From positions 28,647-92,646 of the forward strand of contig JBAZNK010000004.1 in NCBI GenBank assembly GCA_041649255.1: a stretch of 64,000 nucleotides of DNA, written 5' to 3'. This DNA comes from a bacterium (GTDB lineage Bacteria; Hydrothermota; UBA3073; JACQXS01; JAQTXJ01). The stretch's first letter is position 1, and every line of letters starts with the position of its first letter. The position numbers were made by a program, and so were the translations under genes. Below the pieces are notes generated by a model. It made no database searches and was not told the DNA's origin. It saw nothing but the letters and a program-made list of their open reading frames with translations. Shown piece by piece: positions 6,261-44,181 of this stretch.

Positions 6261-6776
6261 CTATTTGTTGTTATAAACTACTTTTCCCCCTTGAGTCTGC
6301 ACTTCCAGACTTTCCGGTAATATGTTATCAAATTCTTTTATCACATCCATAATCTTTTCCGGGCTGCTTGCTTTTATTAATGCCTGCCGAATAGTATTTG
6401 ATTTTAACAACCTTGATATTTTCGCTACAGCTTGTAAATATGTTTTACCGATATCTTCCGGTGCCGCAATCATAAAAATTATATGCACGGGATTGTTGTC
6501 CAACGAGTTGTAAGATATCCCTTCCGGAGATATCCCAATTGCAACTTTTAATACTTTCACACCAGTGGTTCTTGCATGAGGAATGGCTATACCATCGCCA
6601 ATACCGGTTGTTTCTAATTGTTCCCGGGTTTCAATGGCTTTAATAAAATCTTCTGGATTCGTTAAAAAACCAGTTTTTACAAACGTATCCGTGAGTTCTT
6701 TTATTGCTTTAGATTTGTCTTTTTGTTGTAATTTACAATTTATGAATTCAATGCCCGTTAATTCCTGTAATAACAT
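6261..6776 (-). CDS. ptsN: PTS EIIA type-2 domain protein (PtsN / EIIA-Ntr-like)
   Basis: 171 aa; EIIA-2 motif around the phospho-His (GIAIPHART), typical length. Consistent with an RpoN-containing organism. Confidence 0.7.
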   Translation of the reverse strand: MLLQELTGIEFINCKLQQKDKSKAIKELTDTFVKTGFLTNPEDFIKAIETREQLETTGIGDGIAIPHARTTGVKVLKVAIGISPEGISYNSLDNNPVHIIFMIAAPEDIGKTYLQAVAKISRLLKSNTIRQALIKASSPEKIMDVIKEFDNILPESLEVQTQGGKVVYNNK

Positions 6777-6837: not shown

Positions 6838-7512
6838 CTATTTTCGTCGAGCAGAAGAAGATTGTGGAGCTTTTGCAACGTCCTGCTTTGGCGGAATTAT
6901 TTTATTCTTTCGAGGAATTACAAGGACATAAGAATTTTTAGCTCCGGGTATTGCCCCACGAATAAAAAGTAAATTTTTAGGCTCATCAATTTTCACAAGT
7001 TTCAGATTGGCAGTAGTCTGATTCTCATTACCCATTCTTCCCGGTAATGGATGCCCTTTTACTGTCTCCCCCGGTTCTGCTGTTCCTACTGACCCAGGTC
7101 TACGATGAAACTTAGAACCATGACCATCAGGTCCACCCTTCCATCCATATCGTTTCATCCCACCCGCAAAACCTTTTCCGATTGAACAGCCTTCAACGTT
7201 CACCCTTTGAGTGCCCGAAAAAACCGTTACGCCAAGCTGACTACCTATTACCCAATCTTCAGGTGCATTCCTAACTTCATAAAGAACTTGCGTCGGTTTA
7301 ATATTAAGAGCTTTAAACTCTCCTGCATAAGGTTTATTAGGATGTTTCTTTTCTCCATACCCTAATACACACGCATTATAGCCTTCTTTCTGAGCTGTCT
7401 TGCGATAAATCACCGTATTGGGCTTCATTTCAACAACGCTTACGGGAACAACAGTACCATCTTCTTCAAAAATTTGAGTCATTCCGACTTTCTTTCCCAT
7501 TATTCTGACCAT
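6838..7512 (-). CDS. rplC: 50S ribosomal protein L3 (isolated copy, not in an S10 operon context)
   Basis: 224 aa; MGKKVGMTQIF..., GKGFAGGMKRYGW, basic C-terminal extension. The true start is possibly the internal Met (MGKK) at 7500. Confidence 0.88.
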   Translation of the reverse strand: MVRIMGKKVGMTQIFEEDGTVVPVSVVEMKPNTVIYRKTAQKEGYNACVLGYGEKKHPNKPYAGEFKALNIKPTQVLYEVRNAPEDWVIGSQLGVTVFSGTQRVNVEGCSIGKGFAGGMKRYGWKGGPDGHGSKFHRRPGSVGTAEPGETVKGHPLPGRMGNENQTTANLKLVKIDEPKNLLFIRGAIPGAKNSYVLVIPRKNKIIPPKQDVAKAPQSSSARRK

Positions 7513-7680
7513 ATTGTCGTTTAATATCTTATACTTACTATTTTGTCAACAAGAATTTCAACTATTATTAAATATCCTTGAATAAAGTTCTATTATTGTC
7601 ATAATTTGTATAAGGGGATGCTACAAAATATATCAAAGATCTATATAGAATAGATTCGATTTTTCAATACCTTATTTATG

Positions 7681-7875
7681 TTATGCATCCAGAGGAAACA
7701 TCTTTTTCATACTATCAGCAAGTCTTTCTTTCCTTGCAATATCCTCTTCTGATGGGACTTGTTTAACCACTTCATGAGTCTTTGGATCCTTAATCTTATA
7801 AACCGGAATTTCTCTCCCATTTGAATGGATTCCTGGAACTACCACATAAAAAGTAGGAGAAGTGTTTATTTCCAT
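7681..7875 (-). CDS. Small conserved hypothetical protein (64 aa), tandem paralog 1 downstream of fliD
   Basis: Starts MEINTSPTFYVVVPG...; preceded by GGAGGGG RBS. ~70% identical to the 8035..8229 ORF. Confidence 0.5.
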   Translation of the reverse strand: MEINTSPTFYVVVPGIHSNGREIPVYKIKDPKTHEVVKQVPSEEDIARKERLADSMKKMFPLDA

Positions 7876-8034
7876 TTCTATCCCCTCCAAGTTATAAACT
7901 CTTTTGACCTAAATTCTACCCTGACAGAACTACTTCTCTTCATTATTTAATTATTCCTGCTTTATATATATAATAAACTAAAAAATTATCTACATATCTA
8001 TAATTCCAAATATTATAACACTTTATTATATATA

Positions 8035-8229
8035 TTAAGCATCCACGGGAAACATCTTTGTCATGCTATTCGCAAGTCTTTCTTTCCTTGCAATATCCTC
8101 TTCCGATGGAATTTGTTTAACTATTTCACCGGTTTTAGAGTCTTGAATCCTATAAACTGGAATTTCTCTCCCATTTGAATGCATACCCGGAGACACTATA
8201 TAAAAAGTGGGGGACGTATTTATTTCCAT
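8035..8229 (-). CDS. Small conserved hypothetical protein (64 aa), tandem paralog 2 downstream of fliD
   Basis: MEINTSPTFYIVSPGMHSNGREIPVYRIQD...; GGAGGAG RBS 8 nt upstream; paralog of 7681..7875. Confidence 0.5.
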   Translation of the reverse strand: MEINTSPTFYIVSPGMHSNGREIPVYRIQDSKTGEIVKQIPSEEDIARKERLANSMTKMFPVDA

Positions 8230-8278
8230 TTTCTCTCCTCCTTCATTACAAGAAGTTCCTTGGGCTTTAGCCCTTAGA

Positions 8279-10186
8279 TTAAACTGTTGCAGCGCTTAAA
8301 AACGACTGCATAGATAAATATTGGCTCTGGTATTGAGTCATCATAACTTGCATTTGTGCAAGTTGTTTTGTATATGCCTCTACTCTCTTATCTATTCTTG
8401 ATTGCATTGACGTAATTCTAATATCAAGGTAGTTACTTTTACTATCCTGACCACTTATACTTTTTCCTACATAACCACCACTCTTAACATAATTATCAAC
8501 ATAATCATACAATTTTGATGCTTTTCCATATCCGGTATCCCCGGTAATTAATTGAAATAATTCTGATACATTGGAAGCTTTATTTGCAAGAGCATTTTCA
8601 AATTTATTAGTATCCGAAATCGAGTAATTCCCATTTGAATCGGCGGTTATACCTATTTGAGGAAGTTGTTCATAACCGGTATTAGCCACGCCGACAACTT
8701 TTTCTGACATATATCTCCTCAAATTTGAATACAACATTCTATAAATAGAGTTGTCGGAAAGCGGACCTTTGTCATATTCTCCTTCAGTTAATTTACGAGT
8801 CTTTGTTACTTCATCCAGATAATTAACCACATTATTATATGCACTTAGAAATGCTTGAACTTCTGCTTTTACTGATTCGGTATCGGAACCAACCGTAATA
8901 GTTACCGTTGGTGAAGTCTGAACCTTTATTAAATTCAATGTTAGTCCCGTAACTGCATCCGTAACCGTATTTGATTGCCGTTCCATAGATTCCGTATTAA
9001 TAATAAATTTAGAATTAAGTTCATCTTCTGCGTACACATAACCGCCTTCTCCATCTATCGCATCTTTTTTGGTTATCCTATTAAGTCCGGTAGTATTCGG
9101 GGAACCATCCCCAACAAGATTTCCTGTCACATCCTGGAGAGTAACGGTATAATTATTACCTGTTTCTTTACTCATAATTGTAAGTCTTGCTGTATCAGAG
9201 GTCGGATGAACGACAGTCGCAGTAACTCCTGAATCTGCATATCCGGCGCCACCTGCTGTATCTGTCTTTTGTGTTGTCCTGCCAAGTCCGGTAGTATTAT
9301 GTGAACTACTCCCAACAAGGTTCCCTGTTACATCTTCAAGAGTAACGGTATAATCATTACCTGTTTCTTTACTCATAACTGTAATTCTTGATGTCCCGGA
9401 AGTAGGATGCGTCACAGTCGCAGTAACCCTTGTGTCTGCAGCATTTATAGCCGCTGCCATATTGTCCATAATTGTATCGTTTGTATCGCTTGCAGAAACG
9501 TTTACCGCAATATCACTACTTGCAACTCCTTCTACAAGCACTTTAAACTTATATTCCCCGACATCTCCAGGGTTTTCTCCATATGTTTCATTCGCATCTA
9601 AATCTAAAGCCTCCCATATATCCGTTTCTGTACTTGTAAACCTGTCTGATGCCTGAATTGAATTCTGAGCTGCATTTATAGCAGTTGCCATATTTGTCAG
9701 AATTGTTTCATTTGTATCGCTCGCTGCAACGGTTACTGCAATATTGCCACTTGCAACACCTTCTTTAAGCACGTTAAATTTATATGTCCCGGCACCTAAA
9801 CTTAAATTTCCCCATATATCTGTTGCCGTATTTGTGAATTTATCCGATACCTGAATTGAATTTTTGGCTAACTGGGATATTGAAGTGTTATAATTCCCGG
9901 CCACTGCGGTACTCCCGGCAGATGCAGTAACAACATCAGTATCCGAAGAATTTGCTGATTTGCTATTAAAAGAATTAGCTCCTTCAGTAGTATTTTTTAT
10001 AGCATATGCCTGACTTTTTAATACATTTAATTTAGAAAGCAAGCTTGATAAAACTGAATTTGTAGATTGAATTACTGATTTTTGCGCCTTCAGTAAAGTA
10101 AGAGGTTGCTCAAGCTGTGTTCTGTAAGTTTGAATCATACTATCCAGAGCACTTGAGACAGAACCAGTCGACGATGTGCTTGCCAT
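8279..10186 (-). CDS. fliD: Flagellar filament capping protein FliD (hook-associated protein 2)
   Basis: 635 aa; FliD N-terminal and C-terminal coiled-coil domains around an internally duplicated Thr/Ser/Asn-rich central region. Confidence 0.85.
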   Translation of the reverse strand: MASTSSTGSVSSALDSMIQTYRTQLEQPLTLLKAQKSVIQSTNSVLSSLLSKLNVLKSQAYAIKNTTEGANSFNSKSANSSDTDVVTASAGSTAVAGNYNTSISQLAKNSIQVSDKFTNTATDIWGNLSLGAGTYKFNVLKEGVASGNIAVTVAASDTNETILTNMATAINAAQNSIQASDRFTSTETDIWEALDLDANETYGENPGDVGEYKFKVLVEGVASSDIAVNVSASDTNDTIMDNMAAAINAADTRVTATVTHPTSGTSRITVMSKETGNDYTVTLEDVTGNLVGSSSHNTTGLGRTTQKTDTAGGAGYADSGVTATVVHPTSDTARLTIMSKETGNNYTVTLQDVTGNLVGDGSPNTTGLNRITKKDAIDGEGGYVYAEDELNSKFIINTESMERQSNTVTDAVTGLTLNLIKVQTSPTVTITVGSDTESVKAEVQAFLSAYNNVVNYLDEVTKTRKLTEGEYDKGPLSDNSIYRMLYSNLRRYMSEKVVGVANTGYEQLPQIGITADSNGNYSISDTNKFENALANKASNVSELFQLITGDTGYGKASKLYDYVDNYVKSGGYVGKSISGQDSKSNYLDIRITSMQSRIDKRVEAYTKQLAQMQVMMTQYQSQYLSMQSFLSAATV

Positions 10187-10266: not shown

Positions 10267-10599
10267 TTATAGTCCTTCGCTAAATTTTTGAAGATTAAAA
10301 GCCTTGATCCATGACTCTTTAAGTCCTTGTAATATATGCATTGGTTCACCGAAATGACCTTTTCTCGCTTCCGCCATAGCATATTGATAAAGTCTAAAAA
10401 GTCTTGCAGGTATTTCTCCGTGGTCAAAATTTAAAGAATCTATAAGTTCGGCAATTACTGCCAAAGTTTTTCCTTTATCTTTCGCTATACATGCTGATAC
10501 TCCTATATCATATAATTTTGCTATCAACTCTTCTTTTGATAACCCCATAATTTCTTCTTTCAGAAAAGTGTCTGACGCATAACCTGGCATTGTTCTCAT
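10267..10599 (-). CDS. fliS: Flagellar export chaperone FliS
   Basis: 110 aa helical protein immediately upstream of fliD in transcription order; FliS-like motifs (KLYDIGVSACIAKDKG, LYQYAMAEA). Confidence 0.75.
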   Translation of the reverse strand: MRTMPGYASDTFLKEEIMGLSKEELIAKLYDIGVSACIAKDKGKTLAVIAELIDSLNFDHGEIPARLFRLYQYAMAEARKGHFGEPMHILQGLKESWIKAFNLQKFSEGL

Positions 10600-10747: not shown

Positions 10748-11620
10748 TTATTTACCAAGCAATCCGAGTACGAATGAAGGCGCTGTATTCGCCTGTGCAA
10801 GTCCGGCTATTGCAGATTGCTGCAATATTGTATACTTCGTTACAGCCAACTGTTCCTCAGCCATGTCAGCGTTCATTATTCTTGAATAAGTTGCCCAAAC
10901 ATCTGATTCATGCTGAGCAATTCTTCCTTCCTTCACTAATAGACGCTCTTCATAAGTTCCGATGATATTAACAGCGGACTTATCTACTTTTGCAACAGCG
11001 GTTATAAGTGACGCAAGTAATGAACTTGCTGCCGTAATAGTAGAAACGCTCATCGTAGTAATAGAGGCAACTCCCGTTAACTGTTTGAAAGTTAGTCCAC
11101 TTGCTAAATTGTGAACCGTGAATGAGAGTTTGCTTGTCGCTGAATCGCTCGTTGTACCAACCCATGTTGACCTGTTGGTAGAATAGCTACCTTTCAACAG
11201 ATGCAAGCCTCTATACTGAGTCTGTTCTACAGTCTGGTTTATTTCATTTGCAAGAGATTTGAGTTCAGCCAGGACATTTGCTCTGTCAGTTGTTGACAGC
11301 AAGTCAGATGCTGCCCCTTCTGCAAGGACTGACATCTGAGTAAGCATATCCTTAATCGCTACTGCACCTGTTTCTGCAGTAATAAAAAGATTTTGGGTGT
11401 CTTGCACGTTTGTAAGTGCTTTGTGCCACCTCAATGCTGTTCCCTCTAACTCTTTTGCAATAGAAAATTCTGCCGGACCTTCGCCTGCTGAGTTTAACCT
11501 TTTGCCTGTGGCAATTCTGAGTTGGTGAGTACCTAACTCACGGTTAACTGCATTCAAGGCGTTTGATGCATTCATCGCACCCATATTGGTGCGGATTCTC
11601 GCTAAGTCTCCGAATGGCAT
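10748..11620 (-). CDS. fliC: Flagellin (short, 290 aa; N- and C-terminal D0/D1 helices, small variable region)
   Basis: N-terminus (LRIATGKRLNSAGEGPAEFSIAKEL) and C-terminus (IMNADMAEEQLAVTKYTILQQSAIAGLAQAN) match conserved flagellin domains; GGAGG RBS at 11635-11640. Confidence 0.85.
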   Translation of the reverse strand: MPFGDLARIRTNMGAMNASNALNAVNRELGTHQLRIATGKRLNSAGEGPAEFSIAKELEGTALRWHKALTNVQDTQNLFITAETGAVAIKDMLTQMSVLAEGAASDLLSTTDRANVLAELKSLANEINQTVEQTQYRGLHLLKGSYSTNRSTWVGTTSDSATSKLSFTVHNLASGLTFKQLTGVASITTMSVSTITAASSLLASLITAVAKVDKSAVNIIGTYEERLLVKEGRIAQHESDVWATYSRIMNADMAEEQLAVTKYTILQQSAIAGLAQANTAPSFVLGLLGK

Positions 11621-11646: not shown

Positions 11647-11674
11647 ATTATCGCTTACTTTCCCCAAAACTTTA
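11647..11674 (-). promoter_or_regulatory. Sigma-28 (FliA)-like promoter for flagellin
   Basis: Minus strand reads cTAAAGTTT-N12-GCGATAAt, close to the TAAAGTTT-N11-GCCGATAA consensus; ~15 nt upstream of the RBS. Confidence 0.45.
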
Positions 11675-22922: not shown

Positions 22923-25900
22923 TTAGTTATCATTTTTTAAAGTTTTATTTTCTTTAATAATCTTTACTTCTCTATTCAATCTTTCCGATTCCTGTGCAAA
23001 TCTAATAGATTTATCTTTTTCCCCTATTACTCTATAGCAAGTGCTTAAAATTTTATATGCAATCACCTTTTTAAATGCCTCTGTAAGCCTTCCTTCCGAT
23101 ATTAACTTTTCAAGTATCTTAATCGGCTTATTAAAGTTCTTTTGCTGCATAAAAACCATAGCAAGTTGGAAATAATAATACGCCTCTTCTTCTTGAGGTA
23201 GAATAATTACTTCCGGATAAAGTGTGCCTATTCTTTCAATCCCATTTTTAAAAGAGTTTTCTGCCTCTTGATACTTTTCAAGTTTTAAATAATATTCTCC
23301 AAGAAAATAGTACGGCAATGGAGAATTTGGAATAAGCTTGCTCGCAAAAATTACATTTTCAATAGCCTTTTTGAACCCTACTTCTCCTGCACTAACAGCG
23401 CTTTCTATAAGATATTTCAATGCATCATTTTCTTTGTTTATTTTTTCCACTTTCATTTCTTTTTCTTCAATAAACTTTTTTATCCAATCTTTTCCTTCAT
23501 ACCAGCTAATAACCCCATCAATCCCTTTTGCATAATAATAATTTAAAATAAGGGCGTAGCAAGTCTCTAAAAGCGGATCCCTGCTGAACTTGTAACTTTC
23601 TAATTCTTTTTCTGATAACTGCTCCAGTTTGGATACAAGATTTTCGGTATATTTTACTAATTCTTCCCTGTTATAAAAATCACATAAACATCTTCTTTTC
23701 GCTTCTTCCAGACTCCACATATCGGTATGCGGACATTTATAAGACAAAATGCCAAAACTCTCCCCTACTTTTACCTGTCTTTGAATATAACTTTTCAACT
23801 CCTGTTTATGATAATGATAAACGATAGCATCGGCATTATAAACTATTCTGTATTTATTTAGGGTTAATCTTAAACCTAATTCCGAATCCTGCCATCCATA
23901 TTTTAGGCTCTCATCAAACAGACCCGCTTCTTCAAAAGCGCTTCTTCTTAATGATATATTCGGGGCATAAAAATATCTAAATTCAACGTTGTCAGGAGAT
24001 TCAATACTCTCATAAGCAAACTGGATATCCCTGTTTTCTATATAGTTTATAAAATGCGATTTTTCTATTTCAGAAGGCCTTTGAATATACCCTAATACCA
24101 CTGTATTCTCATCCCCTTGTTGATGAGTATTTAAATGCTGCTTTATTAAATCTTTTTTTGCAATTACATCCTGACACGAAAGCAAAATGAATTTTCCCTT
24201 AGCTTCCTGTATCCCCTTATTTGTAGCAGCAGATTGACCTTTATGGGATTGTACATACTGCTTAAATTCACATGGGGCTTTTAATCCTTTAATGGCATCA
24301 ATAGTCCCATCCGTAGAACCATCGTCAACTACGATAATTTCCAAATCATCGGCATTAATACCATCCTGGTTGGCAAACGAATCAATACATTTAAGTAAAA
24401 TTTCTTTGTTATTATAAGAAGGAATAACTACCGATAATAGTTTTTCCTCGGGATACGTAAACTTAACTTTAATTTTATCCATTAAATCGGGTTTTATATG
24501 CCATACGGCAGTATCTTTAGCTTCTATAATCTTATATCCTTTGTTTATTATGCCCAATATAATTTCTTGCAAATTCTTACATTCCTTTGGTATAATTTCC
24601 TTTTTAATAATCATACAAGGAACATTTATGTTCTGAACTACAGTTTTTTCATTTCTGTATTTCTTATAATTTTCCCATACATCATTTTCAAATTCATATA
24701 TAAAATTATACTTAAAGGGCAAACTACTAGGAATAACTATTCCAGCGTCTTTCTTCCTATTTAGGTGACTCATTAAATGTTTATCCCATCGCAATGAGAC
24801 AACAACCCCACTATCCAGTATAGCAATATACTTACCCGAAGAATTTTGAATTATGTAATTTGTAATGTTTTCAAGTTCTTGCTCGTTTTCATATTTAATA
24901 TAAAACTTAAAATTTCGCTCCAATTCTCTGGCAATTTTATCACTTTTTGTCGCAATTAGTATGTCTGATAATTTCTCATCCGTATTAATTACCAAATTTT
25001 CTATAGAAGTTTTCGATATTTCCGTATCCTCCGTTACAATAAAAATTATAGTAAGTTCATTTAACAAATGAGACAACAAAGAAGAATCATAAGAAACTTT
25101 AAACCTTTCCGGGTATTTTTCTTTCGGCTCGGGTAATGTATTCCCAAGGTGAATTAACCTTTTTTCTACCATTTCGACGCTATAATTATCTTTAATAAGA
25201 GCTTTCCCATTTCGAGATAGTCTTTCCCACAATTCTTTATCATTATATACTTTAATTACCTCATTAGCAAAACTCTCAGGCGTATCTGCAATTAATCCGT
25301 GTTTGCCATTTTCTATTCCAATTCCTTCCGCTCCAATTGATGTGGTAACCACCGGAATGCCATTTGCAAGCGCTTCGGTCACTTTTCCTTTCATCCCCGC
25401 CCCATAAGTCAAAGGCGCAACCGAAATGCAACAGGAGTCAAGATATACATTAGTGTCGGGTACATACCCCGTTACGATAATGTCTTCAGACTCAAAAGCT
25501 CTAACTTCCGGAGGAGGAGCATTGCCAACTATAAAAAACTTTATATCCGGTAATTTTTTCTTAATTAAAGGAAATATCTCTTTACAAAAATATAACACCG
25601 CGTCTACATTAGGAGTATGTAAAAAACCTCCTACAAACAAAATATCTCCCCTGTTTTCCCTGCCAATAAAGTCTTCCGTGATTTTATGCGTATTGGGCAA
25701 AATTCTTATATCCAAATTGGGAGATTCCTTTAAAAGCGCTTCTCTATCCGTTTCGCAAACGGTTGTGACTACATCCATTTTTTCATAAGTTGCCAACTCT
25801 TTAATTTTATTATATGTAACTTTTCTAAAAAGAGATGGAATTCCTAAAATTTCTGCTTCTCGGAGTTCTCTCATAAAATGCACATCGTGACTATCCAGCA

Positions 25901-27050
25901 CCGTAACACTTTGTGGAGAAAATTTCCTTATAAAATCTATCCACCTGTCTGCAATATTATAAAATTCCAGAGAAACCAACTTAAATTTATTAAAGGTAAG
26001 CAATGCTTCAATTCCTTCGGGAAAAAGAGGATCATAAATTCCACTAATATGCCGCTTTAAATCACAATGAAAAACTGCTACATCCAATTCTTCCAATTTA
26101 TCTACATATTTTTCATACCCGAGTAAATCTTCCACTATAAACACAACATCATAATATTTCTTTAATATATTTATTTTTTGATACAGTCTCAATCCACCAG
26201 ATGAAGCGTCATACCAGGGAGGATATTCGGCAATTATTAATATTTGTTCTTTTTCTGACGGAACTTTATAAAAAGCGCTCTTATAATTACTTAAAACTTT
26301 TTCCCATTTATTAATAAACTTTTCCCTGTTAACTTCCTGGTGTTTTTTCATCCCGGATTTCACGTCCGTTCCTGCTGTTCCCCCTTCTATATGAGTAACC
26401 AGGCTTTTAGGTTGATACATTACCCTAAGTCCCGCTTCTCTACTTCTAAAACACAAATCAACATCTTCAAAATAGCAGGGACAAAACAATTCATCAAACT
26501 CACCGGTTCTATCTAAAGTACTTCGTTTAATATACATACAAGCGCCTGAAGAATAATCAATCTCTCTCTGATGATTATATTTTGGCTTATCGGGATTATC
26601 TCCCCTGCCGATATTTCGTGTTGCCCCATATCTAAAAATATTTCCTCCCCCTGCTTCATTTATAACACCGGTAGGATAAATAAACTTTGGGGCGACGATA
26701 CCAATATCTTCGGAACTATAAGCGCATTCAATTAATCCTTCAAGCCATCCGTTATGAACTAATGTATCATTATTTAATAACAATATGTCATTCTTTGCAT
26801 AAGTCCTCATAACCTGATTCATAGATAATACAAAACCTACATTCTCAGGGCTATTGATAACATCAACTTTATTTTCTAAACTTTCCAAATATTCTTTAGT
26901 CCCATCCGTACTCGCCTGGTCAAATACGCATATTCTATAATAAGGAGTTTTGGTATTCTTAAAAATACTTTCAATGCAATTCTTTAATAAATCAGCCCTA
27001 TTCCAGGTTGGAATAGTGATTATAACCGGTCTGTTTTTATCTGGTTTCAT
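22923..27050 (-). CDS. Giant multidomain glycosyltransferase: GT2 (GT-A) + GT1/GT4 (GT-B) + second GT2 + C-terminal TPR repeats
   Basis: 1375 aa. N-terminal GT-A (PVIITIPTWNRADLL...DQASTDGT...EDVDLCFR). Central GT-B (LFVGGFLHTPNVDAV...GMKGKVTEALANGIPVVTT). Third domain GT-A (LSVVIPSYNNKEIL...VVDDGSTDGT). C-terminal TPR. Confidence 0.7.
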   Translation of the reverse strand: MKPDKNRPVIITIPTWNRADLLKNCIESIFKNTKTPYYRICVFDQASTDGTKEYLESLENKVDVINSPENVGFVLSMNQVMRTYAKNDILLLNNDTLVHNGWLEGLIECAYSSEDIGIVAPKFIYPTGVINEAGGGNIFRYGATRNIGRGDNPDKPKYNHQREIDYSSGACMYIKRSTLDRTGEFDELFCPCYFEDVDLCFRSREAGLRVMYQPKSLVTHIEGGTAGTDVKSGMKKHQEVNREKFINKWEKVLSNYKSAFYKVPSEKEQILIIAEYPPWYDASSGGLRLYQKINILKKYYDVVFIVEDLLGYEKYVDKLEELDVAVFHCDLKRHISGIYDPLFPEGIEALLTFNKFKLVSLEFYNIADRWIDFIRKFSPQSVTVLDSHDVHFMRELREAEILGIPSLFRKVTYNKIKELATYEKMDVVTTVCETDREALLKESPNLDIRILPNTHKITEDFIGRENRGDILFVGGFLHTPNVDAVLYFCKEIFPLIKKKLPDIKFFIVGNAPPPEVRAFESEDIIVTGYVPDTNVYLDSCCISVAPLTYGAGMKGKVTEALANGIPVVTTSIGAEGIGIENGKHGLIADTPESFANEVIKVYNDKELWERLSRNGKALIKDNYSVEMVEKRLIHLGNTLPEPKEKYPERFKVSYDSSLLSHLLNELTIIFIVTEDTEISKTSIENLVINTDEKLSDILIATKSDKIARELERNFKFYIKYENEQELENITNYIIQNSSGKYIAILDSGVVVSLRWDKHLMSHLNRKKDAGIVIPSSLPFKYNFIYEFENDVWENYKKYRNEKTVVQNINVPCMIIKKEIIPKECKNLQEIILGIINKGYKIIEAKDTAVWHIKPDLMDKIKVKFTYPEEKLLSVVIPSYNNKEILLKCIDSFANQDGINADDLEIIVVDDGSTDGTIDAIKGLKAPCEFKQYVQSHKGQSAATNKGIQEAKGKFILLSCQDVIAKKDLIKQHLNTHQQGDENTVVLGYIQRPSEIEKSHFINYIENRDIQFAYESIESPDNVEFRYFYAPNISLRRSAFEEAGLFDESLKYGWQDSELGLRLTLNKYRIVYNADAIVYHYHKQELKSYIQRQVKVGESFGILSYKCPHTDMWSLEEAKRRCLCDFYNREELVKYTENLVSKLEQLSEKELESYKFSRDPLLETCYALILNYYYAKGIDGVISWYEGKDWIKKFIEEKEMKVEKINKENDALKYLIESAVSAGEVGFKKAIENVIFASKLIPNSPLPYYFLGEYYLKLEKYQEAENSFKNGIERIGTLYPEVIILPQEEEAYYYFQLAMVFMQQKNFNKPIKILEKLISEGRLTEAFKKVIAYKILSTCYRVIGEKDKSIRFAQESERLNREVKIIKENKTLKNDN

Positions 27051-27758: not shown

Positions 27759-28805
27759 CTATAATTTTATACACTTCTCAAGAACTTTTTCCGGCAAAAT
27801 AATTGACATACAATCCTTTTCGCATTTACTTTTATAGCACCCCAAACAATCCAATTCAGGTTCAATAATCTCTCCAAGCCCATATAATTCAAACTCATTT
27901 CTGTTGAAAATATTATTCAGAAGTATTATTTTCTTTTCAAATCCTATCGCTATATGTAAAGCCATAGTGACCTGTGTAACCACAACTTCGCACACATTTA
28001 CGACCCAAAGAAAATCCTTTAAACTGAAAGTCCCCCAGTATTCTGCTCCGCTTTTTGTTTTTATCCTTTTGTTTTTTTCGTCTTCCTGCGGTCCTCCCAA
28101 AAGAAGCGGAATAAAACCGGCGCTTTTTAATTTTTTAGCTAATGTTACCCAGTTTTCTTCGCTCCAGTTACGAGTTTCCCATCTCCCCCCGCATCCCGTA
28201 TTTAATCCTACTATGCGACCTTTTAATTTTGGGAGTTCCGGGGACTTACCTTTAAGTTCAAGAATATATTTTTCGCCTGAGAAATTAAATCCGCAAACTT
28301 CAAATATTTCCTCAACATAATGTTTTTTATTAGCTTTTTCTATATCATCCCATAATCCCGTTAAAAACTTATGTTCGGCATCTTTATCAATAGAACTGCA
28401 TTTGCCGTCTTTAAGAATAAAACCCTTTTTTATATCCGCAGAAATAAGCCTTGCAAGGGAACAAGTTTCCTTGTCTTTATCAAGATTGTAAAGTATGTCA
28501 AACTTATCTCCTAAAAGAGATACGACGTTTGAAAGCTCAAACTTCATAGGATAATCTACGATAGAAGGCAAAAGTTCCGGGAATATGCTTAACCATGTAA
28601 TCTCGCTATCGGGATATATCTCTTTGAGTCTTCTTAAAATTGGAGTTGTTCTTATAACGTCTCCTGCTGCGCCAAATTTTATTATTAGAATTCTTTTTGA
28701 CACCTCTTTATAATATTCACAATTGTCACAATGAACTCCCTTTTCTTTATGGAATTTACAAGGAATATCCCCTTTGTAAAACCTGCAATTAGTTTTAATT
28801 TTCAT
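27759..28805 (-). CDS. GT9 family glycosyltransferase (heptosyltransferase-like) with N-terminal Cys4 zinc-ribbon-like motif
   Basis: 348 aa; GT9 motif (ILIIKFGAAGDVIRTTPILRRL); N-terminal C-x7-C-x9-C-x2-C; overlaps the start of the upstream radical-SAM gene by 11 nt (translational coupling). Confidence 0.6.
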   Translation of the reverse strand: MKIKTNCRFYKGDIPCKFHKEKGVHCDNCEYYKEVSKRILIIKFGAAGDVIRTTPILRRLKEIYPDSEITWLSIFPELLPSIVDYPMKFELSNVVSLLGDKFDILYNLDKDKETCSLARLISADIKKGFILKDGKCSSIDKDAEHKFLTGLWDDIEKANKKHYVEEIFEVCGFNFSGEKYILELKGKSPELPKLKGRIVGLNTGCGGRWETRNWSEENWVTLAKKLKSAGFIPLLLGGPQEDEKNKRIKTKSGAEYWGTFSLKDFLWVVNVCEVVVTQVTMALHIAIGFEKKIILLNNIFNRNEFELYGLGEIIEPELDCLGCYKSKCEKDCMSIILPEKVLEKCIKL

Positions 28806-31800
28806 TGCCCCTTCCTTTTAGAAATGCTTCTCCTATTTGTGGCATAATGGTGCATAAAAGCCAGCAATGGCATTTCCCGCTGTTCATAAAATCCCGAATC
28901 TTAGTTGCTTTGGACGATTCCCATAATTTATCAAAAGGAGTATCTTTAACATTCCCAACTAACATCTGTTTATTCATCGGACAGAAAAAAAGGTCTCCTT
29001 GAGGATTAAACATAGCAAAATGCACTCCTGCCATACACTTCTTAAAAACTCTGGTAGGATGTAATTGATATTCAACTAAATTCGACCAGAAATATAATTG
29101 CGCAAGTAACCCTATATCGCTTGTAATTGATGTCGTTCTTTTTGCATCAATCATTTTTTTAAGTATTATTTCGATAATGCCTTGAACTTCCAATAACTTT
29201 TCCTTGCTCCATTTCGGGTCCGGCGGTAATACAAATTGAGCCGAAAATATACAATTAAGCCTATTTACAAATTCATAAACAGGCAATAGTTCCGTATAAT
29301 TGTCAGGAGTAACTGTAAAATTAATATTGTAATGAATGTCTTCAAACTCTTTCTGCACTTGAGTTATTGTTCGGACTAAATTATTAAATGCATCCTTTCT
29401 GCCCCTGATTTCATTATGCTTTTCAAATAAGCCGTCAAGAGAAGACCCCAGCCAGATAGATTTTGGCTCATACTTCCTTTTTACCTCCATAAGTTTTTTT
29501 ATCGTTAAATTCGCATCCATACTATTTGTCAAAATTCCAATACTCGCTTCCGGCAACTGTTCTGTTAAGCAACCGCATATTTCTACAAAATCTTTTCTCA
29601 AAAAAGGTTCTCCACCGGAAAGGACTATAGATTTAACATTTTTAAGATATTTGGAATCTCCGATAAACTTCTGAATTTCTTCAAGTGTTAATTGTTTTTT
29701 CTCTAACTCCGGGAATTTGCTGTATTTATCCCACAAATCACAAAAAGTGCATTTACAATTACACCTGTAAGTTAATTCCATATGTAGTTCTTCAGGCCCC
29801 TTCCCTAAATTTATTGCATTATCTATTTTTGGAATTCCTTTTTGAATAGTGTGGTTAATGCTCTCTAAAAGATACTTAAATGGATATCCCTTAATATTAT
29901 GCTCTCTGTACAAGTCCTCTATTTCATAATACAGATTTATTAGAGAAGGGTCTATCTCTTGCGCTTTACGCAGATATGCAATTGCTTCATCTATCTTGCC
30001 TTGCATTTTGCATAAGTATCCCATATTAACGTATGCATCAATATAATCCGGTTTAATTGAAATGGATTTTTTGAAACAACTTTCCCCGTCCTGAAGCTTG
30101 CCAACAGAAACCATTGACACCCCTGTAATATCCCAGATTTCATAATCATCCGGCACGCAAGATAACAATTTTACAAATAGTAAACAGGCTTCTTGTAATT
30201 GTTGGTTAGAAGCCCATTTTTTCCCGAGTTCCAAAACCCATTTTTTTAAATCCGGGTCAATGCTTAATGCTTTTTGAAGCAACTCTTTAGGAAAATCTAA
30301 CTTCCCGGTATTAAAATATAATTTACATAGAATAGAATAAACTTTTGTTGACTCAGGATGCGCTGATAAAACACTTTCCAATTTTAAAATCGCATTCTTG
30401 TAATCTCCTGAATTTATAAAGTTTTCTGCTTCATTTATTTCTTTATCAACTCCCCTTACAGACGGAACTTTTTCGTTAGCTTTTGTATCTTTCCCCGTTC
30501 CCCATTCTTTAATTTCCTTTAAACATTCTTCGTATAAATCCTGTAATCCGATTTTTTGATAGCAGAACGCAAGGTTTTGAATAATAGAGATATTGCGGGA
30601 TTCTTTTTCTATGGAGTTAATAAAATATGGAATTGCTTTTTCAGGTTCTCCTGTATTAAAATAATAATTACCTATGAGATTATTTCTGTTCAGTAATCTT
30701 GGAGCAGGGTAAACACTTGGAACTTTCAAATCCCACGCAAGTTGGCAGAACTCTTCAAATCTTCTTAAACGCACTAAATAAGTATTAGAGCCATCTTTTG
30801 ATTCCCAATACTCTCCTCCTTTACTAAAATCAATGTCAAATTCTTCCTGATGGTCATAAGCATAAGTCCCGGGAGCAAAGCTGCAAAATGCAGGGCAGGG
30901 ATTGACAGTCCCAATATAATCTTTATTTCTTCTTAAAAACTTAAGCGTCTCTCTGAAATCTTCTTCTGTTTCCCCAGGCAAACCAAACATAAAATTAACG
31001 GCACAACTAAGGCCGGCTTTACAACCATCTCTTACTATTTTCTCAGGGTTAATATCTTTTGCCAACAATTTTCCTGCCTTTAACATTAAAGGAACTGAAG
31101 CAGTTTCCATTCCGTATCCTAATGCTACACACCCTGATTGTTTTAATTTAAGTAAAAGTTCATAAGTCATATCCTTTCTCATAATTGCCTGACCGCTCCA
31201 CTGGATTTTCAGCCCATCTTTTACTATGAAATCAGCAAGTTTTTCTAACTCCTTAACACTTCCATTGACCAAACTATCCTGAAAATCAAAGAAACTTCCT
31301 TTTGGATGTTTTTTCAATTGATACAACATTTCCTTATACATATTTTCTGCCGTTCTGAATCGAAATCTTTTCCAGAAAGGACGTTCATTGCAATACACAC
31401 ATTTATTACAGCATCCCCTGCTTGAGATAATTGGAATTTTAAATGGTTCTTTATAATCATTGAAATCGTAATCCGAAAAATCCGGCATTGGCAAAGAATT
31501 AACGTCTTTAATTAACTCTCTATCCCCGCAATCAACCACTTCGCCATTTTTACATATAAGCGTCCCTGCACAAAAATCTACTTTCGGATTTTTAACAATT
31601 TCTTCTAAAGTAACTTCTCCTTCCCCCTGGACAATAAAGTCTACGTTTTCATCTTTAATAATTGCTTTTCCTGCTAAGTCCCTGCTTACATGGGGACCAC
31701 CAAATACAATAATTATTTTGCTGTTTTTTTTCTTAATTTGTTTTGCCAGGTAAAGACTAATATATAAAGAAGAAAAATATATTGAAAATCCAACAACTTT

Positions 31801-33768
31801 TGCTCCACTGCCTAATATTATATCTACATAGTCATTTAAATAATTCTTATGATATTCTATAAACTCATCTACCACGGATGGATTATTCCAGAATGCAAGT
31901 GATTTTTCTAACTCCCAGACATCAGTGTATTTACCTCTTCTCAATTTATAGAGTTCTATATTCAAATCTAAGGAAAGAACTTCATACCCCTGATGTCTCA
32001 CATAAGCAGTCAAACTGGCTAATGCCAGAGGCGGAGTGCTTATTCCCCATGCCGGAGCTTGAACAAGCACAACATCTGCATTCGTAATTTTATTTTTAAT
32101 GTTTGCGTCCGATAAAGACGGAAAATGTTTTTTCATAATATTTTTTACCTCTATTTTCTGGTTATTATCTTTAATTTTACCGCTTTTTTCAAGTTTAAGG
32201 TATTTATCTATAATTTTATTTTTTTTGTTAAGTTCCGCATACAAGGCAGAAAGTTTATCAAATATTTCAGTATTAAACGTTTCTTTAACTAAAGACCTTT
32301 CATAATATTTAGTCGCTTCTTGATATTTCTTTTCATAAAGATAATAATCGCCTATGAGTTTATTCTCGTTAGGTAATTGTTTGAAACCCAATACTATACC
32401 TAATGACTCTAAATGATTAGTAAATTTTTGAAATCTATTTAAACGAATTACATAATTATTTTTTCCGTCTTTACTTTTCCAGTAAACAGCATTATCGTTT
32501 ACTTCTATATTAAATTCTTCCGGGTGAGAATATGCATAACAGCCGGTTGTAAACCCACAAAATCCGGCGCTTGGATTAACTGAGCAATGAGGTCGTAGAT
32601 AGTCAGCATTTCTTGTGAAGAAATCCAAATCGGCTTGAAAATCTTCTTCCGTATCTCCCGGGAAACCGAACATCCAATTCAATCCTATACCTAATTGCGC
32701 TTTATAGCAATCTTTGATAAACTTATCAAAATCGGCATTTTTACACAATAGTTTCCCCATTTTAAGTAATTGTCCTTTTGAAGAATGTTCCATTCCAAAA
32801 CAAAGATGAAAACAGCCAGAATTATGAATTTTCTGCAATAATTCAAATGTCATTTCCGGACGAACGGTCGCTTGCCCCATCCATTCAATACCAAGATTGC
32901 TTTCTATCGCAAGGTCACAAAATTTTTCAAGGGCTTTAACATTACCATTTACCAAAGAATCAGTAAATTCAATTTTTTTTATGTTATATTTAGAAACCTG
33001 GTATTTTACTTCTTCAAAAATTTTCTCCCCTGTTCTGCTTCTAAATTTATACCAAAACACTTTTTCATCGCAATAAATACAATTATTAGGACACCCTCTT
33101 GAAGTTGTAGCCGGTAACATTACAGGCTCTTTATATAATTCAAAAGGAAAATCAGAAAAATCGGCATAAGGCAAAGAATTAAGGTCTGCGATTAATGGTC
33201 TGTCTCCACCGTAATAAATTTTTCCATTTCTGGAAAATAACACGCCTTTTATTGGGTCAAATTCTTCTCCTTTTTCAATAGCTTTGACCAATTCATATAA
33301 AGTTTCTTCCCCTTCCCCGTGAACTACGAAATCTACTTCATTTCTTAAAACAAATTCTTCTCCTTTTATGCCTCTTGCCGCATGGGGACCACCAAAAACG
33401 ATAATCCTGCTCGGGTCTTTCTTTTTAATTTCGGACGCCAATACCAAACTCATTTGTTCCGTAGACCATAGTATTGTAAAACCGATTATTTTAGAGCCGG
33501 AATTTAAAATCTCATCTACGTATCTATCTATTAATTTCTTATGTGCCTTTACAAAATTGCTTACCGCTTGAATATCGCCCCAGAATCCTTCGTTTAATGT
33601 CCACGCATTTGCATATTTAGTATCCTTGAATTCATTATACAATTCAATATTAATGTCCCTCTTGTAAACTTCATAACCGTAAGATTTTAAATAAGCAGAT
33701 AAACAAGCTATAGCAAAAGGAGGGCTTTGTCTTCCCCATGCAGGTGTCTGGATTAATGCTATTTTCAT
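28795..33768 (-). CDS. Giant tri-radical-SAM protein: two tandem B12-binding (class B) radical-SAM domains, TPR linkers, and a C-terminal SPASM/twitch-type radical-SAM domain
   Basis: 1657 aa. Domain 1 (KIALIQTPAWG...TSRGCPNNCIYCDE: CxxxCxxC). Domain 2 (VVLVQAPAWGISTPP...SSRGCCNKCVYCNE). TPR region ~aa 1000-1290. Domain 3 (MELTYRCNCKCTFCD plus C-terminal Cys-rich CMAGVHFAMFNPQGDLFFCP...GKCHCWLLC). Confidence 0.8.
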   Translation of the reverse strand: MKIALIQTPAWGRQSPPFAIACLSAYLKSYGYEVYKRDINIELYNEFKDTKYANAWTLNEGFWGDIQAVSNFVKAHKKLIDRYVDEILNSGSKIIGFTILWSTEQMSLVLASEIKKKDPSRIIVFGGPHAARGIKGEEFVLRNEVDFVVHGEGEETLYELVKAIEKGEEFDPIKGVLFSRNGKIYYGGDRPLIADLNSLPYADFSDFPFELYKEPVMLPATTSRGCPNNCIYCDEKVFWYKFRSRTGEKIFEEVKYQVSKYNIKKIEFTDSLVNGNVKALEKFCDLAIESNLGIEWMGQATVRPEMTFELLQKIHNSGCFHLCFGMEHSSKGQLLKMGKLLCKNADFDKFIKDCYKAQLGIGLNWMFGFPGDTEEDFQADLDFFTRNADYLRPHCSVNPSAGFCGFTTGCYAYSHPEEFNIEVNDNAVYWKSKDGKNNYVIRLNRFQKFTNHLESLGIVLGFKQLPNENKLIGDYYLYEKKYQEATKYYERSLVKETFNTEIFDKLSALYAELNKKNKIIDKYLKLEKSGKIKDNNQKIEVKNIMKKHFPSLSDANIKNKITNADVVLVQAPAWGISTPPLALASLTAYVRHQGYEVLSLDLNIELYKLRRGKYTDVWELEKSLAFWNNPSVVDEFIEYHKNYLNDYVDIILGSGAKVVGFSIYFSSLYISLYLAKQIKKKNSKIIIVFGGPHVSRDLAGKAIIKDENVDFIVQGEGEVTLEEIVKNPKVDFCAGTLICKNGEVVDCGDRELIKDVNSLPMPDFSDYDFNDYKEPFKIPIISSRGCCNKCVYCNERPFWKRFRFRTAENMYKEMLYQLKKHPKGSFFDFQDSLVNGSVKELEKLADFIVKDGLKIQWSGQAIMRKDMTYELLLKLKQSGCVALGYGMETASVPLMLKAGKLLAKDINPEKIVRDGCKAGLSCAVNFMFGLPGETEEDFRETLKFLRRNKDYIGTVNPCPAFCSFAPGTYAYDHQEEFDIDFSKGGEYWESKDGSNTYLVRLRRFEEFCQLAWDLKVPSVYPAPRLLNRNNLIGNYYFNTGEPEKAIPYFINSIEKESRNISIIQNLAFCYQKIGLQDLYEECLKEIKEWGTGKDTKANEKVPSVRGVDKEINEAENFINSGDYKNAILKLESVLSAHPESTKVYSILCKLYFNTGKLDFPKELLQKALSIDPDLKKWVLELGKKWASNQQLQEACLLFVKLLSCVPDDYEIWDITGVSMVSVGKLQDGESCFKKSISIKPDYIDAYVNMGYLCKMQGKIDEAIAYLRKAQEIDPSLINLYYEIEDLYREHNIKGYPFKYLLESINHTIQKGIPKIDNAINLGKGPEELHMELTYRCNCKCTFCDLWDKYSKFPELEKKQLTLEEIQKFIGDSKYLKNVKSIVLSGGEPFLRKDFVEICGCLTEQLPEASIGILTNSMDANLTIKKLMEVKRKYEPKSIWLGSSLDGLFEKHNEIRGRKDAFNNLVRTITQVQKEFEDIHYNINFTVTPDNYTELLPVYEFVNRLNCIFSAQFVLPPDPKWSKEKLLEVQGIIEIILKKMIDAKRTTSITSDIGLLAQLYFWSNLVEYQLHPTRVFKKCMAGVHFAMFNPQGDLFFCPMNKQMLVGNVKDTPFDKLWESSKATKIRDFMNSGKCHCWLLCTIMPQIGEAFLKGRGNEN

Positions 33769-43520: not shown

Positions 43521-43792
43521 GCATAGATCGCAAAACATTATACAGAAAACTCAAAAGATATAAAATAGTATCTCCATCACCCCAGACACAAGACACAACA
43601 CAATAAACCAGCACAAAAACAAAACAACCCAATCAAAATAAACTACACATTAAACACACTCAAAATACCCCAACACAAACAAAATCAACCACAATAGTGT
43701 AGCATAAAACTACACCCCAAAACCCCTAACCAACAACACAAAACAACACAGCGTCAATTCGCTACACCACACTGTCGCTCAATGCCTCAGTG

Positions 43793-44005
43793 TGGCAAAT
43801 TGACATATAGGAACAAAATGCCACATTGTAACATAAGGCAAAAAGCCACACCTCGGGATTATTTATCATCACAGTAAAATAACTCAGGGGTATATTGCTA
43901 CACTAGACTGTGGCTAAATAGAACATTGGGGCAAATTGACATATGAGAACAAAAGCCACACCGCAAAGTAAGGCAAAAAGCCACACCTCGAGACTGTTTA
44001 TTATC
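43793..44005. repeat. Two ~75-bp direct repeats (period ~138 bp) with recurring GCCACA/TGTGGC motifs inside a CA-only intergenic region; candidate enhancer (UAS) elements
   Basis: GGCAAATTGACATAT[A/G]GGAACAAAA..GCCACA...TAAGGCAAAAAGCCACACCTCG[G/A]GA.T.TTTAT at 43795-43870 and 43933-44008; long-range inverted repeat GGGGCAAATTGACA (43935) / TGTCAATTTGCCCC (44052). Confidence 0.6.
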
Positions 44006-44150
44006 CTATTAATACAACTTAGGGGTAAATCGCCACATATAGTTGTGTCAATTTGCCCCTGTGGTTATTTAGGACATACTGATTTGTATGATGATGTAAC
44101 TATTTGTTGGGTGTGGGTTTTAGGGTATTAGTGTGAATAATTTTGTATAT

Positions 44151-44165
44151 TGGCACATTTGTTGC
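44151..44165 (+). promoter_or_regulatory. Sigma-54 promoter (TGGCAC-N5-TTGC) upstream of the second activator gene
   Basis: TGGCACatttgTTGCTATTATAATAT; exact -24/-12 consensus; lies inside the track ORF start (44143), so the real start is ATG 44182. Confidence 0.55.
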
Positions 44166-44181
44166 TATTATAATATCTACT

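What the first reader, a model, noticed from the sequence alone, without database searches (positions are those of the whole stretch)
7681..8229. Tandemly duplicated 64-aa ORFs immediately downstream of fliD
Two ~70%-identical small proteins (MEINTSPTFY[VI]V.PG.HSNGREIPVY[KR]I.D.KT.E.VKQ.PSEEDIARKERLA.SM.KMFP.DA), each with its own strong RBS, occupy the position where FliT or other late chaperones/regulators usually sit. They are not FliT-like (too short, not helical-looking). Conservation of both copies implies function.
Basis: seen in the sequence. Interest (0 to 1): 0.5.

Follow-up and report, generated by a model that had tools for sequence, protein, structure and literature searches.

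The report
Tandem half-size FlaG flagellar regulator genes
The two small genes after the flagellar cap gene fliD are real, conserved copies of a half-length version of FlaG, a known regulator of flagellar filament length, found only in a small group of uncultured bacteria.

Summary
Two 64-codon ORFs lie on the minus strand (8229..8035 and 7875..7681), directly after flagellin-fliS-fliD. Each has a strong Shine-Dalgarno site, and dN/dS between them is 0.13. They are not an unknown family. Profile comparison places them in FlaG (PF03646): hhalign 98.2%, E 5e-14 against 30 canonical FlaGs, and the RQIPSE signature is kept. They hold only the C-terminal core, predicted as three beta-strands plus one helix. 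They lack the roughly 70 N-terminal residues (disordered segment and helix 1) present in all 120-160-aa FlaGs seen here. This mini-FlaG form is rare: nine 90%-identity clusters among 5.8 billion proteins, all 64-65 aa. Wherever enough upstream sequence exists, it follows fliD. WOR-3 (Caldifarciminota) relatives carry one copy followed by a FliT-like gene. The window's clade (three lineages) carries the tandem pair and no detectable FliT-like gene. The likeliest mechanism, by inference only, is the one shown for Campylobacter FlaG: binding the FlhA export-gate ring to antagonise FliS-flagellin delivery. Verdict: a new short variant of a known family, of modest interest.

The parts
8035..8229 (-). 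mini-flaG copy A (fliD-proximal), 64 aa: FlaG-family core without the N-terminal half
   Evidence: ORF and translation. Pfam FlaG is the only hit, at 19.7 bits against a gathering score of 23.8. An HMM built from canonical FlaGs only gives E 4.6e-10. hhalign 98.2%. AF2 model pLDDT 81.6, strand-strand-strand-helix.
7681..7875 (-). mini-flaG copy B (fliD-distal), 64 aa, 81% identical to copy A
   Evidence: Pfam FlaG 20.8 bits. Canonical-only FlaG HMM E 2.4e-8. dN/dS against copy A is 0.13.
8235..8243 (-). Shine-Dalgarno site of copy A (AAGGAGGAG), 7 nt before the ATG
   Evidence: Read directly from the sequence.
7882..7888 (-). Shine-Dalgarno site of copy B (GGAGGGG), 6 nt before the ATG at 7875
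   Evidence: Read directly from the sequence. It overlaps the TTG at 7890, which argues for the ATG as the true start.
7960..8034 (-). AT-rich block of about 75 nt after the copy A stop codon. It is conserved in L001 and L003 and partly repeated after copy B. It is promoter-like in L003 (TTGAAA-17-TATAAT) but degenerate in the window.
   Evidence: Alignments (71% mean column identity). The function is inference only. The window promoter scan found no minus-strand site here.
8279..10186 (-). fliD (filament cap), immediately upstream of the pair
   Evidence: Pfam FliD_N and FliD_C.
10267..10599 (-). fliS (flagellin chaperone)
   Evidence: Pfam FliS 31.3 bits, above the gathering score of 26.7.
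10748..11620 (-). Flagellin gene heading the late-gene cluster
   Evidence: Pfam Flagellin_N and Flagellin_C.
11648..11674 (-). Sigma-28-like promoter (TAAAGTTT-N12-GCGATAA) upstream of the flagellin gene
   Evidence: Sequence and pattern search. That pattern alone is not rarer than chance: 2 found against 1.95 expected. The case rests on position and on the extended match.

Best explanation
The two ORFs are functional paralogues of a minimal FlaG. Each is a 64-residue protein holding only the C-terminal core of the FlaG family (PF03646): three antiparallel beta-strands, the [KR]Q[IV]PSE motif, one C-terminal helix and a 5-residue tail. They lack the roughly 70 N-terminal residues (disordered segment plus helix 1) present in all 120-160-aa FlaGs seen here. 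They sit at the end of the late flagellar cluster flagellin-fliS-fliD.

Shown here: homology to FlaG, the short architecture, purifying selection on both copies, strict linkage to fliD, and retention of the tandem pair in three lineages.

Inferred: they act as Campylobacter jejuni FlaG was shown to act (Waller et al. 2024, PMC11536152). That protein docks on the cytoplasmic ring of the export-gate protein FlhA and antagonises delivery of FliS-flagellin complexes, so limiting flagellin export and filament length.

Also inferred: with only about 9 unstructured N-terminal residues, they may be exported poorly or not at all, and so could act as more persistent antagonists. The two paralogues could supply dosage or form a heterodimer.

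Family assignment about 0.9; specific mechanism about 0.4.
For: Family assignment
- FlaG is the sole or best Pfam hit for all seven members tested (14.9-25.5 bits). One member, P0006, is above the gathering score, and PF03646 is precomputed for P0006 and P0011.
- A profile of four minis searched against 1.84 billion representatives reached a canonical 132-aa FlaG, P0008, at E 9e-4.
- hhalign of nine minis against 30 canonical FlaGs gives 98.2%, E 5e-14, with mini residues 19-60 on FlaG 86-127. A relaxed alignment puts residues 3-12 on FlaG strand 1, with a 5-residue insertion.
- An HMM built only from canonical FlaGs picks out exactly these two ORFs in the six-frame translation of the whole window.
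- The only PDB sequence hit of the mini profile is FlaG 6jsx, E 0.0056.

Structure
- Two independent AF2 runs agree: strands 10-17, 23-30 and 36-40, helix 43-59, pLDDT 81.6 and 79.8.

Selection
- dN/dS is 0.13 between the copies and 0.08-0.23 across lineages.
- The N-terminal decapeptide MEINTSPTFY is invariant despite synonymous changes.

Context
- fliD lies directly upstream in every locus with enough sequence: window, L001/L002, L003, L004-6, L010, L011.

Mechanism template
- PMC11536152.
Against: - Neither window copy reaches Pfam's gathering score (19.7 and 20.8 against 23.8).
- Helix 1, part of the crystallised FlaG core (6jsx alignment), is absent, so the fold cannot be identical.
- The C-terminal tail, predicted in C. 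jejuni to form the FlhA-binding strand, is short here (FPVDA) and not conserved between mini-FlaG clades.
- FlhA of this organism is not in the window, so no interaction could be modelled.
- There is no expression or phenotype data.
- A full-length FlaG elsewhere in this genome cannot be excluded.
Confidence: 0.6

Rival explanations
1. They are FlaG homologues but work as an exported, filament-associated factor affecting flagellin stability or filament assembly, as reported for Treponema denticola FlaG, rather than as a cytoplasmic antagonist of FlhA.
For: PMC11536152 cites T. denticola FlaG as part of the filament and as affecting flagellin stability. The invariant N-terminal decapeptide could be a short type III export signal. 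The position after the cap gene fliD fits.
Against: Only about 9 residues precede the first strand. That is much less than the roughly 40-70 disordered N-terminal residues of canonical FlaG. Nothing here bears on localisation.
Confidence: 0.15
2. In the window's clade one paralogue has taken over the role of the missing FliT, acting as a chaperone or regulator of the FliD cap protein at the export gate. The duplication would then be neofunctionalisation, not dosage.
For: Sister-clade loci have a single mini-flaG followed by a FliT-like gene. Window-clade loci have two mini-flaG genes and no FliT-like gene in the 64-kb window or in L001. A FliT-like profile search of 5.8 billion proteins found only seven proteins. 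Copy A carries four clade-unique substitutions: S13, S31, G34, T57.
Against: FliT is an all-helical chaperone and the mini-FlaG model is mostly beta-strand. The paralogues are still 81% identical and both are under similar constraint. MAGs are incomplete, and a diverged FliT could escape a word-seeded search. The correlation rests on two clades, which is one evolutionary event.
Confidence: 0.1
3. The resemblance to FlaG is a shared short motif (IRQIPSEE) by convergence, and the proteins form an unrelated small family of unknown role.
For: Single-sequence hits are below the curated cut-offs. Fold searches do not recover FlaG significantly. The same motif gives weak hits to CheA and FliG chains.
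Against: The hhalign match covers 42 columns, well beyond the motif, at E 5e-14. A canonical-only HMM gives E 4.6e-10. Strict linkage to fliS and fliD is what homology predicts. One member passes Pfam's threshold.
Confidence: 0.05
4. They are non-functional leftovers or spurious ORFs.
For: They are very short. No expression data exist. NCBI annotates them as 'hypothetical protein' in the source MAG.
Against: dN/dS is 0.13 at dS 0.81. Length is fixed at 64-65 aa in nine clusters. Both have strong Shine-Dalgarno sites. The pair is kept in three lineages.
Confidence: 0.02

Closest known systems
FlaG family (Pfam PF03646; e.g. Campylobacter jejuni, Vibrio and Pseudomonas FlaG; Bacillus subtilis YvyC, PDB 2HC5; FlaG core, PDB 6JSX)
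   Same: Homologous over the strand 2 - strand 3 - helix 2 region, with the [KR]Q[IV]PSE signature. It is encoded with the late genes fliD and fliS. It probably has the same regulatory logic at the FlhA export gate, which is inferred from PMC11536152.
   Different: Half the length: 64 aa against 121-162 aa for every canonical hit listed, apart from one 85-aa protein its source marks as partial. No disordered N-terminal segment and no helix 1. A clade-invariant 5-residue insertion (P-G-x-H) in the first hairpin. The gene lies after fliD rather than before it; the usual flaG-fliD-fliS order is my own knowledge, not tested here. It is tandemly duplicated in one clade. The window copies fall just below Pfam's gathering score.
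FliT (PF05400), export chaperone of FliD
   Same: Occupies the same genomic slot: in the sister clade the FliT-like gene follows the mini-flaG directly. It is also a small late-flagellar protein.
   Different: No sequence similarity. FliT is helical throughout, whereas the mini-FlaG model is three strands plus one helix.
Injectisome gatekeepers (SctW family: MxiC, YopN, SepL)
   Same: A functional analogy drawn by Waller et al. (PMC11536152): proteins that bind the FlhA/SctV ring and block chaperone-substrate delivery.
   Different: No homology, and they are much larger proteins. The analogy applies only if the inferred FlhA-binding mechanism is right.

Membership tests
FlaG (PF03646) | Score at or above Pfam's gathering threshold (23.8 bits) | tested here: not met
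   Copy A 19.7 bits and copy B 20.8 bits. FlaG is the only hit for both. Relatives score 14.9-25.5 bits, and only P0006 passes.
FlaG (PF03646) | Profile-level homology to bona fide FlaG proteins | tested here: met
   hhalign of nine minis against 30 canonical FlaGs: 98.2%, E 5e-14, 42 columns. Canonical-only HMM: E 4.6e-10 and 2.4e-8. The canonical set itself hits 2hc5 and 6jsx.
FlaG (PF03646) | Signature motif D-x-x-T-G-E-h-I-R-Q-I-P-S-E in strands 2-3 and the start of helix 2 | tested here: met
   Copy A has QDSKTGEIVKQIPSEE and copy B has KDPKTHEVVKQVPSEE. T33, Q39, P41 and S42 are invariant in all nine minis.
FlaG (PF03646) | Full architecture: disordered N-terminal region, helix 1, three-stranded sheet, helix 2 (about 120-160 aa) | tested here: not met
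   64 aa. The model begins with strand 1 at residue 10. The alignment starts at about FlaG residue 73 of 132.
FlaG (PF03646) | Fold match to solved FlaG structures (2HC5, 6JSX) | tested here: inconclusive
FlaG (PF03646) | Encoded with the late flagellar genes fliD and fliS | tested here: met
   It lies directly after fliD in the window and in the six other independent loci with enough upstream sequence.
FlaG (PF03646) | Limits filament length; binds FlhA; is secreted by the flagellar type III system | not testable with these tools
   Needs genetics or biochemistry. FlhA is not in the window.
FliT (PF05400) | Sequence match to FliT and an all-helical fold | tested here: not met
   No Pfam FliT hit. 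An HMM of the sister clade's FliT-like proteins finds nothing in the window (best E 0.65). The model is mainly beta-strand.

The most novel reading that the evidence does not exclude
The mini-FlaG is a natural minimal FlaG. It would show that the N-terminal half, including the presumed export signal and helix 1, is dispensable for gate antagonism, making the protein a non-secreted brake on flagellin export. In the window's clade the duplicated pair would act as a heterodimer, or one paralogue would have replaced the lost FliT at the FlhA ring.
Probability: 0.12. Interest if true: 0.55.

Novelty: new variant of a known kind. Interest (0 to 1): 0.33.

Why it matters
How FlaG limits filament length was worked out only recently (PMC11536152), and which parts of the protein are needed is still open. 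A naturally occurring 64-residue form keeps only the beta-sheet, helix 2 and the tail. It suggests a minimal functional unit and gives a simple test: do native FlaGs truncated to this core, or the mini-FlaG itself, still bind FlhA and shorten filaments, and are they still secreted?

The clade-level swap, from one mini-flaG plus fliT to two mini-flaG and no fliT, is a small natural experiment in how the late-export accessory set can be rewired. For annotation, these genes should be named as FlaG-family (short form) rather than hypothetical.

Tried and rejected
- A single-sequence search of PDB sequences gave only a chance hit to a phage tail terminator (E 1.6).
- NCBIfam FlaG equivalogs matched far below their cut-offs.
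- MAFFT global alignments placed the mini N-terminus (ME-INT..) against the canonical FlaG N-terminus (MD-VS..), which would imply an internal deletion. I treat this as an end-anchoring artefact. The AF2 models put residues 10-17 in a strand paired with strand 2, and hhalign places them on FlaG strand 1. A retained N-terminal signal cannot be excluded.
- A scan of JGI metagenome contigs for further loci found none.
- No Rfam family or tRNA is present in the window.
- No convincing promoter or terminator lies between the copies in the window. The promoter-like hexamers in the conserved 3' block are good only in L003.
- Orthology of copies A and B across lineages could not be resolved. L001's two copies resemble each other (60/64) more than either resembles a window copy, which suggests gene conversion or rate differences. 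With about 40 synonymous sites the estimates are noisy.
- A literature search for the 6JSX structure paper and a look-up of the T. denticola FlaG paper both failed.

Full report
**1. What is in the sequence**

The finding's interval holds two ORFs on the minus strand. Copy A is 8229..8035. Copy B is 7875..7681. The mechanical ORF for copy B begins at a TTG at 7890, but the ATG at 7875 aligns with the start of every homologue. That ATG also lies 6 nt after a GGAGGGG Shine-Dalgarno site that overlaps the TTG.

Copy A has AAGGAGGAG 7 nt before its ATG. It starts only 49 nt after the fliD stop codon, so it cannot be the tail of a longer gene.

The proteins are 52/64 identical (81%, E 2e-41, no gaps). 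At DNA level there is one 206-nt direct repeat at 82% identity with a 354-nt period.

The minus-strand gene order is as follows:

| Element | Coordinates |
|---|---|
| flagellin, preceded by a sigma-28-like TAAAGTTT-N12-GCGATAA | 11620..10748 |
| fliS | 10599..10267 |
| fliD | 10186..8279 |
| copy A | 8229..8035 |
| copy B | 7875..7681 |
| ribosomal protein L3 gene | 7512..6838 |
| PTS EIIA-2 gene | 6776..6261 |

**2. Are they real genes?**

Nei-Gojobori counts between the two copies give dS 0.81, dN 0.106 and dN/dS 0.13. Comparisons with the copies in related contigs give 0.08-0.23.

The first ten residues (MEINTSPTFY) are identical in all five complete genes of this clade, although several of those codons differ synonymously.

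The same tandem pair, at the same place, occurs in a second MAG: GCA_028716385.1, locus L001, with an independent Logan assembly as L002. It also occurs in a JGI metagenome contig, L003. There the fliD 3' end is followed by one complete copy and, 186 nt later, by the start of a second copy cut by the contig end.

Flanking genes of the window and L001 differ by dS of about 0.36-0.43. The window paralogues (dS 0.81) are therefore at least as old as that split. Orthology of A and B across lineages is blurred: L001's two copies are 60/64 identical. That points to some gene conversion or to noise from only about 40 synonymous sites.

**3. What family?**

- Pfam gives FlaG (PF03646) as the only hit for both copies. 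The scores are 19.7 and 20.8 bits against a gathering score of 23.8, covering profile positions 64-91 of 101.
- All other members tested also give FlaG as the best hit. One (P0006) passes at 25.5 bits. PF03646 is precomputed for P0006 and P0011.
- NCBI names one close relative 'flagellar protein FlaG' but calls the window's own proteins hypothetical (WC614_03980 and WC614_03975).
- An index-free HMMER search of 1.84 billion representatives with a four-member profile found just two further 64-aa representatives, one repetitive protein that is evidently spurious, and a canonical 132-aa FlaG, P0008, at E 9e-4.
- hhalign of the nine mini sequences (A5) against 30 canonical FlaGs (A6, no minis) gives 98.2% probability and E 5e-14 over 42 columns. 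Mini residues 19-60 align to FlaG residues 86-127.
- An HMM built from the canonical set alone, run on the six-frame translation of the whole window, finds exactly these two ORFs (E 4.6e-10 and 2.4e-8) and nothing else.
- The mini profile's only PDB sequence hit is the FlaG core 6jsx (E 0.0056). The canonical set hits 2hc5 (B. subtilis YvyC) and 6jsx, which confirms what that set represents.
- The family signature is kept: QDSKTGEIVKQIPSEE in copy A against EDSETGELIRQIPSE in the canonical consensus.

**4. How they differ from FlaG**

In one search every canonical hit listed is 121-162 aa, apart from one 85-aa protein its source marks as partial. Every mini is 64-65 aa.

Two AlphaFold2 runs, one with a mixed alignment and one with minis only, agree. 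Residues 1-9 are coil, strands lie at 10-17, 23-30 and 36-40, and a helix spans 43-59. Mean pLDDT is 81.6 and 79.8.

A relaxed hhalign places residues 3-12 on FlaG strand 1 (LKFTV) with a 5-residue insertion. That insertion holds the mini-specific invariant P14-G15-x-H17.

The mini therefore corresponds to about residues 73-132 of a 132-aa FlaG. It lacks the disordered N-terminal segment and helix 1. Helix 1 is part of the crystallised core (6jsx alignment).

**5. Distribution and context**

The mini form is rare. There are nine clusters at 90% identity among 5.8 billion proteins and three representatives at 50% identity among 1.84 billion. One GTDB-species scan found four loci. A JGI contig scan found none.

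One carrier MAG is labelled candidate division WOR-3, now the phylum Caldifarciminota. The window's MAG is labelled only 'bacterium'.

Wherever enough upstream sequence exists, fliD is the preceding gene.

The family splits into two arrangements:

| Clade | Loci | Arrangement |
|---|---|---|
| WOR-3 | L004-6, L010, L011, L012, L013 | One mini-flaG followed directly by a 105-114-aa FliT-like gene (Pfam FliT 26.8 bits, below the 29.5 cut-off; mutually homologous, E 1e-21 or better) |
| Window | window, L001/L002, L003 | Two mini-flaG genes and no FliT-like gene in the 64-kb window or in L001 |

A FliT-like profile search of the 5.8-billion-protein set returned only seven proteins. This suggests, but does not prove, loss of that fliT together with the duplication. 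MAGs are incomplete, the search is word-seeded, and this is a single evolutionary event.

**6. How it most likely works**

For C. jejuni, Waller et al. (PMC11536152) showed three things. FlaG co-purifies with FlhA. FlaG and FliS-flagellin complexes antagonise each other for the FlhA ring. FlaG is itself secreted.

AF3 predicted that its last six residues form a strand that pairs with a conserved FlhA strand. It also predicted that the N-terminal roughly 40 residues are flexible.

By homology, the best-supported reading is that the mini-FlaGs are late-stage regulators acting at the FlhA ring to restrain flagellin export. This step is inference.

Three points weigh against simple transfer of the mechanism:
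- Helix 1 is missing.
- The C-terminal tail is short and differs between clades: FPVDA, LEKWA, FPKKW.
- The N-terminal region that would normally carry a type III export signal is reduced to about 9 residues, though these are strikingly conserved.

Hence the rival readings: an exported, filament-associated role as reported for T. denticola, and takeover of the FliT role by one paralogue.

**7. Comparison with what is known, and novelty**

These are members, at superfamily level, of a known family. They are a previously undescribed short architecture with an unusual gene position and a clade-specific tandem duplication. No description of such a form turned up in the four searches of the held papers, none of which targeted short FlaG forms. 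I rate this a new variant of a known kind, of modest interest. It offers a natural minimal FlaG for dissecting a mechanism that was clarified only in 2024.

**8. Wider context of the window**

Between the late-gene cluster and the core flagellar operon lies a roughly 30-kb block of glycosyltransferase, TPR, methyltransferase and radical-SAM genes (11.9-41.7 kb). It is plausibly a flagellin glycosylation island.

After it come two sigma-54 activator genes. Next, on the plus strand, are a rod gene, fliF, fliG, fliH, fliI, an 831-aa fliK, flgD, flgE, motA, fliM and fliO. The organism therefore encodes a full flagellum. flhA presumably lies just beyond the window's end.

Noticed in passing
window 11906-41752 (minus strand): A block of about 30 kb directly upstream of the flagellin gene, made almost entirely of glycosyltransferase (GT1, GT2, GT4, GT9), TPR, methyltransferase and radical-SAM genes. 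It includes a 1657-aa B12-binding radical-SAM/TPR protein (28795-33768) and a 1375-aa multi-glycosyltransferase (22923-27050). It is probably a flagellin glycosylation island. Related loci also have a GT2-TPR gene upstream of the flagellin gene.
   Followed up: partly
window 6838-7512 (minus strand) and promoter at about 7521-7549: A stand-alone ribosomal protein L3 gene sits between the flagellar late genes and a PTS EIIA-2 gene, outside any S10 operon. It is preceded by TTGACA-17-TATTAA, which ends 8 nt before the ATG, with no Shine-Dalgarno site. The mRNA may be leaderless. The promoter block is conserved in L001.
   Followed up: no
window 9037-9869 (inside fliD): The variable middle of FliD contains internal tandem duplications: a 201-nt unit twice at 76% identity, 129 nt twice at 80%, and 78 nt twice at 74%. 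They are visible in the protein as repeated '...TATVTHPTSGTSRITVMSKETGNDYTVTLEDVTGNLVG...' segments.
   Followed up: partly
window 7960-8034 and 7620-7680; L001 7849-7935; L003 688-775: An AT-rich block of about 75 nt after the mini-flaG stop codon is conserved across three lineages and is part of the duplicated unit. In L003 it reads as a near-consensus sigma-70 promoter (TTGAAA-17-TATAAT), which would give the second copy its own promoter. In the window the hexamers are degenerate.
   Followed up: partly
window 42264-45231 (plus strand): Two sigma-54 enhancer-binding activators, one with a receiver domain and one with a Fis-type HTH, lie just upstream of the flgC-like/fliF operon. This suggests a sigma-54 plus sigma-28 flagellar hierarchy like that of polar flagellates.
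   Followed up: no
window 52462-54957 (plus strand): The FliK hook-length control protein is unusually long at 831 aa. Only its C-terminal Flg_hook domain is recognisable. A 263-aa ORF with no Pfam match lies just upstream (51674-52465).
   Followed up: no
L004 3550-3930 (and L005, L006): In the WOR-3 relatives, a 126-aa gene of the bAvd / 23S-rRNA-intervening-sequence protein family sits directly upstream of the flagellin gene. This is an odd neighbour for a flagellar locus.
   Followed up: no
window 8262-8273 (minus strand): A small GGGC-TAAA-GCCC hairpin lies between the fliD stop and the copy A ribosome-binding site, with no following T-run. It is not a recognisable terminator.
   Followed up: no
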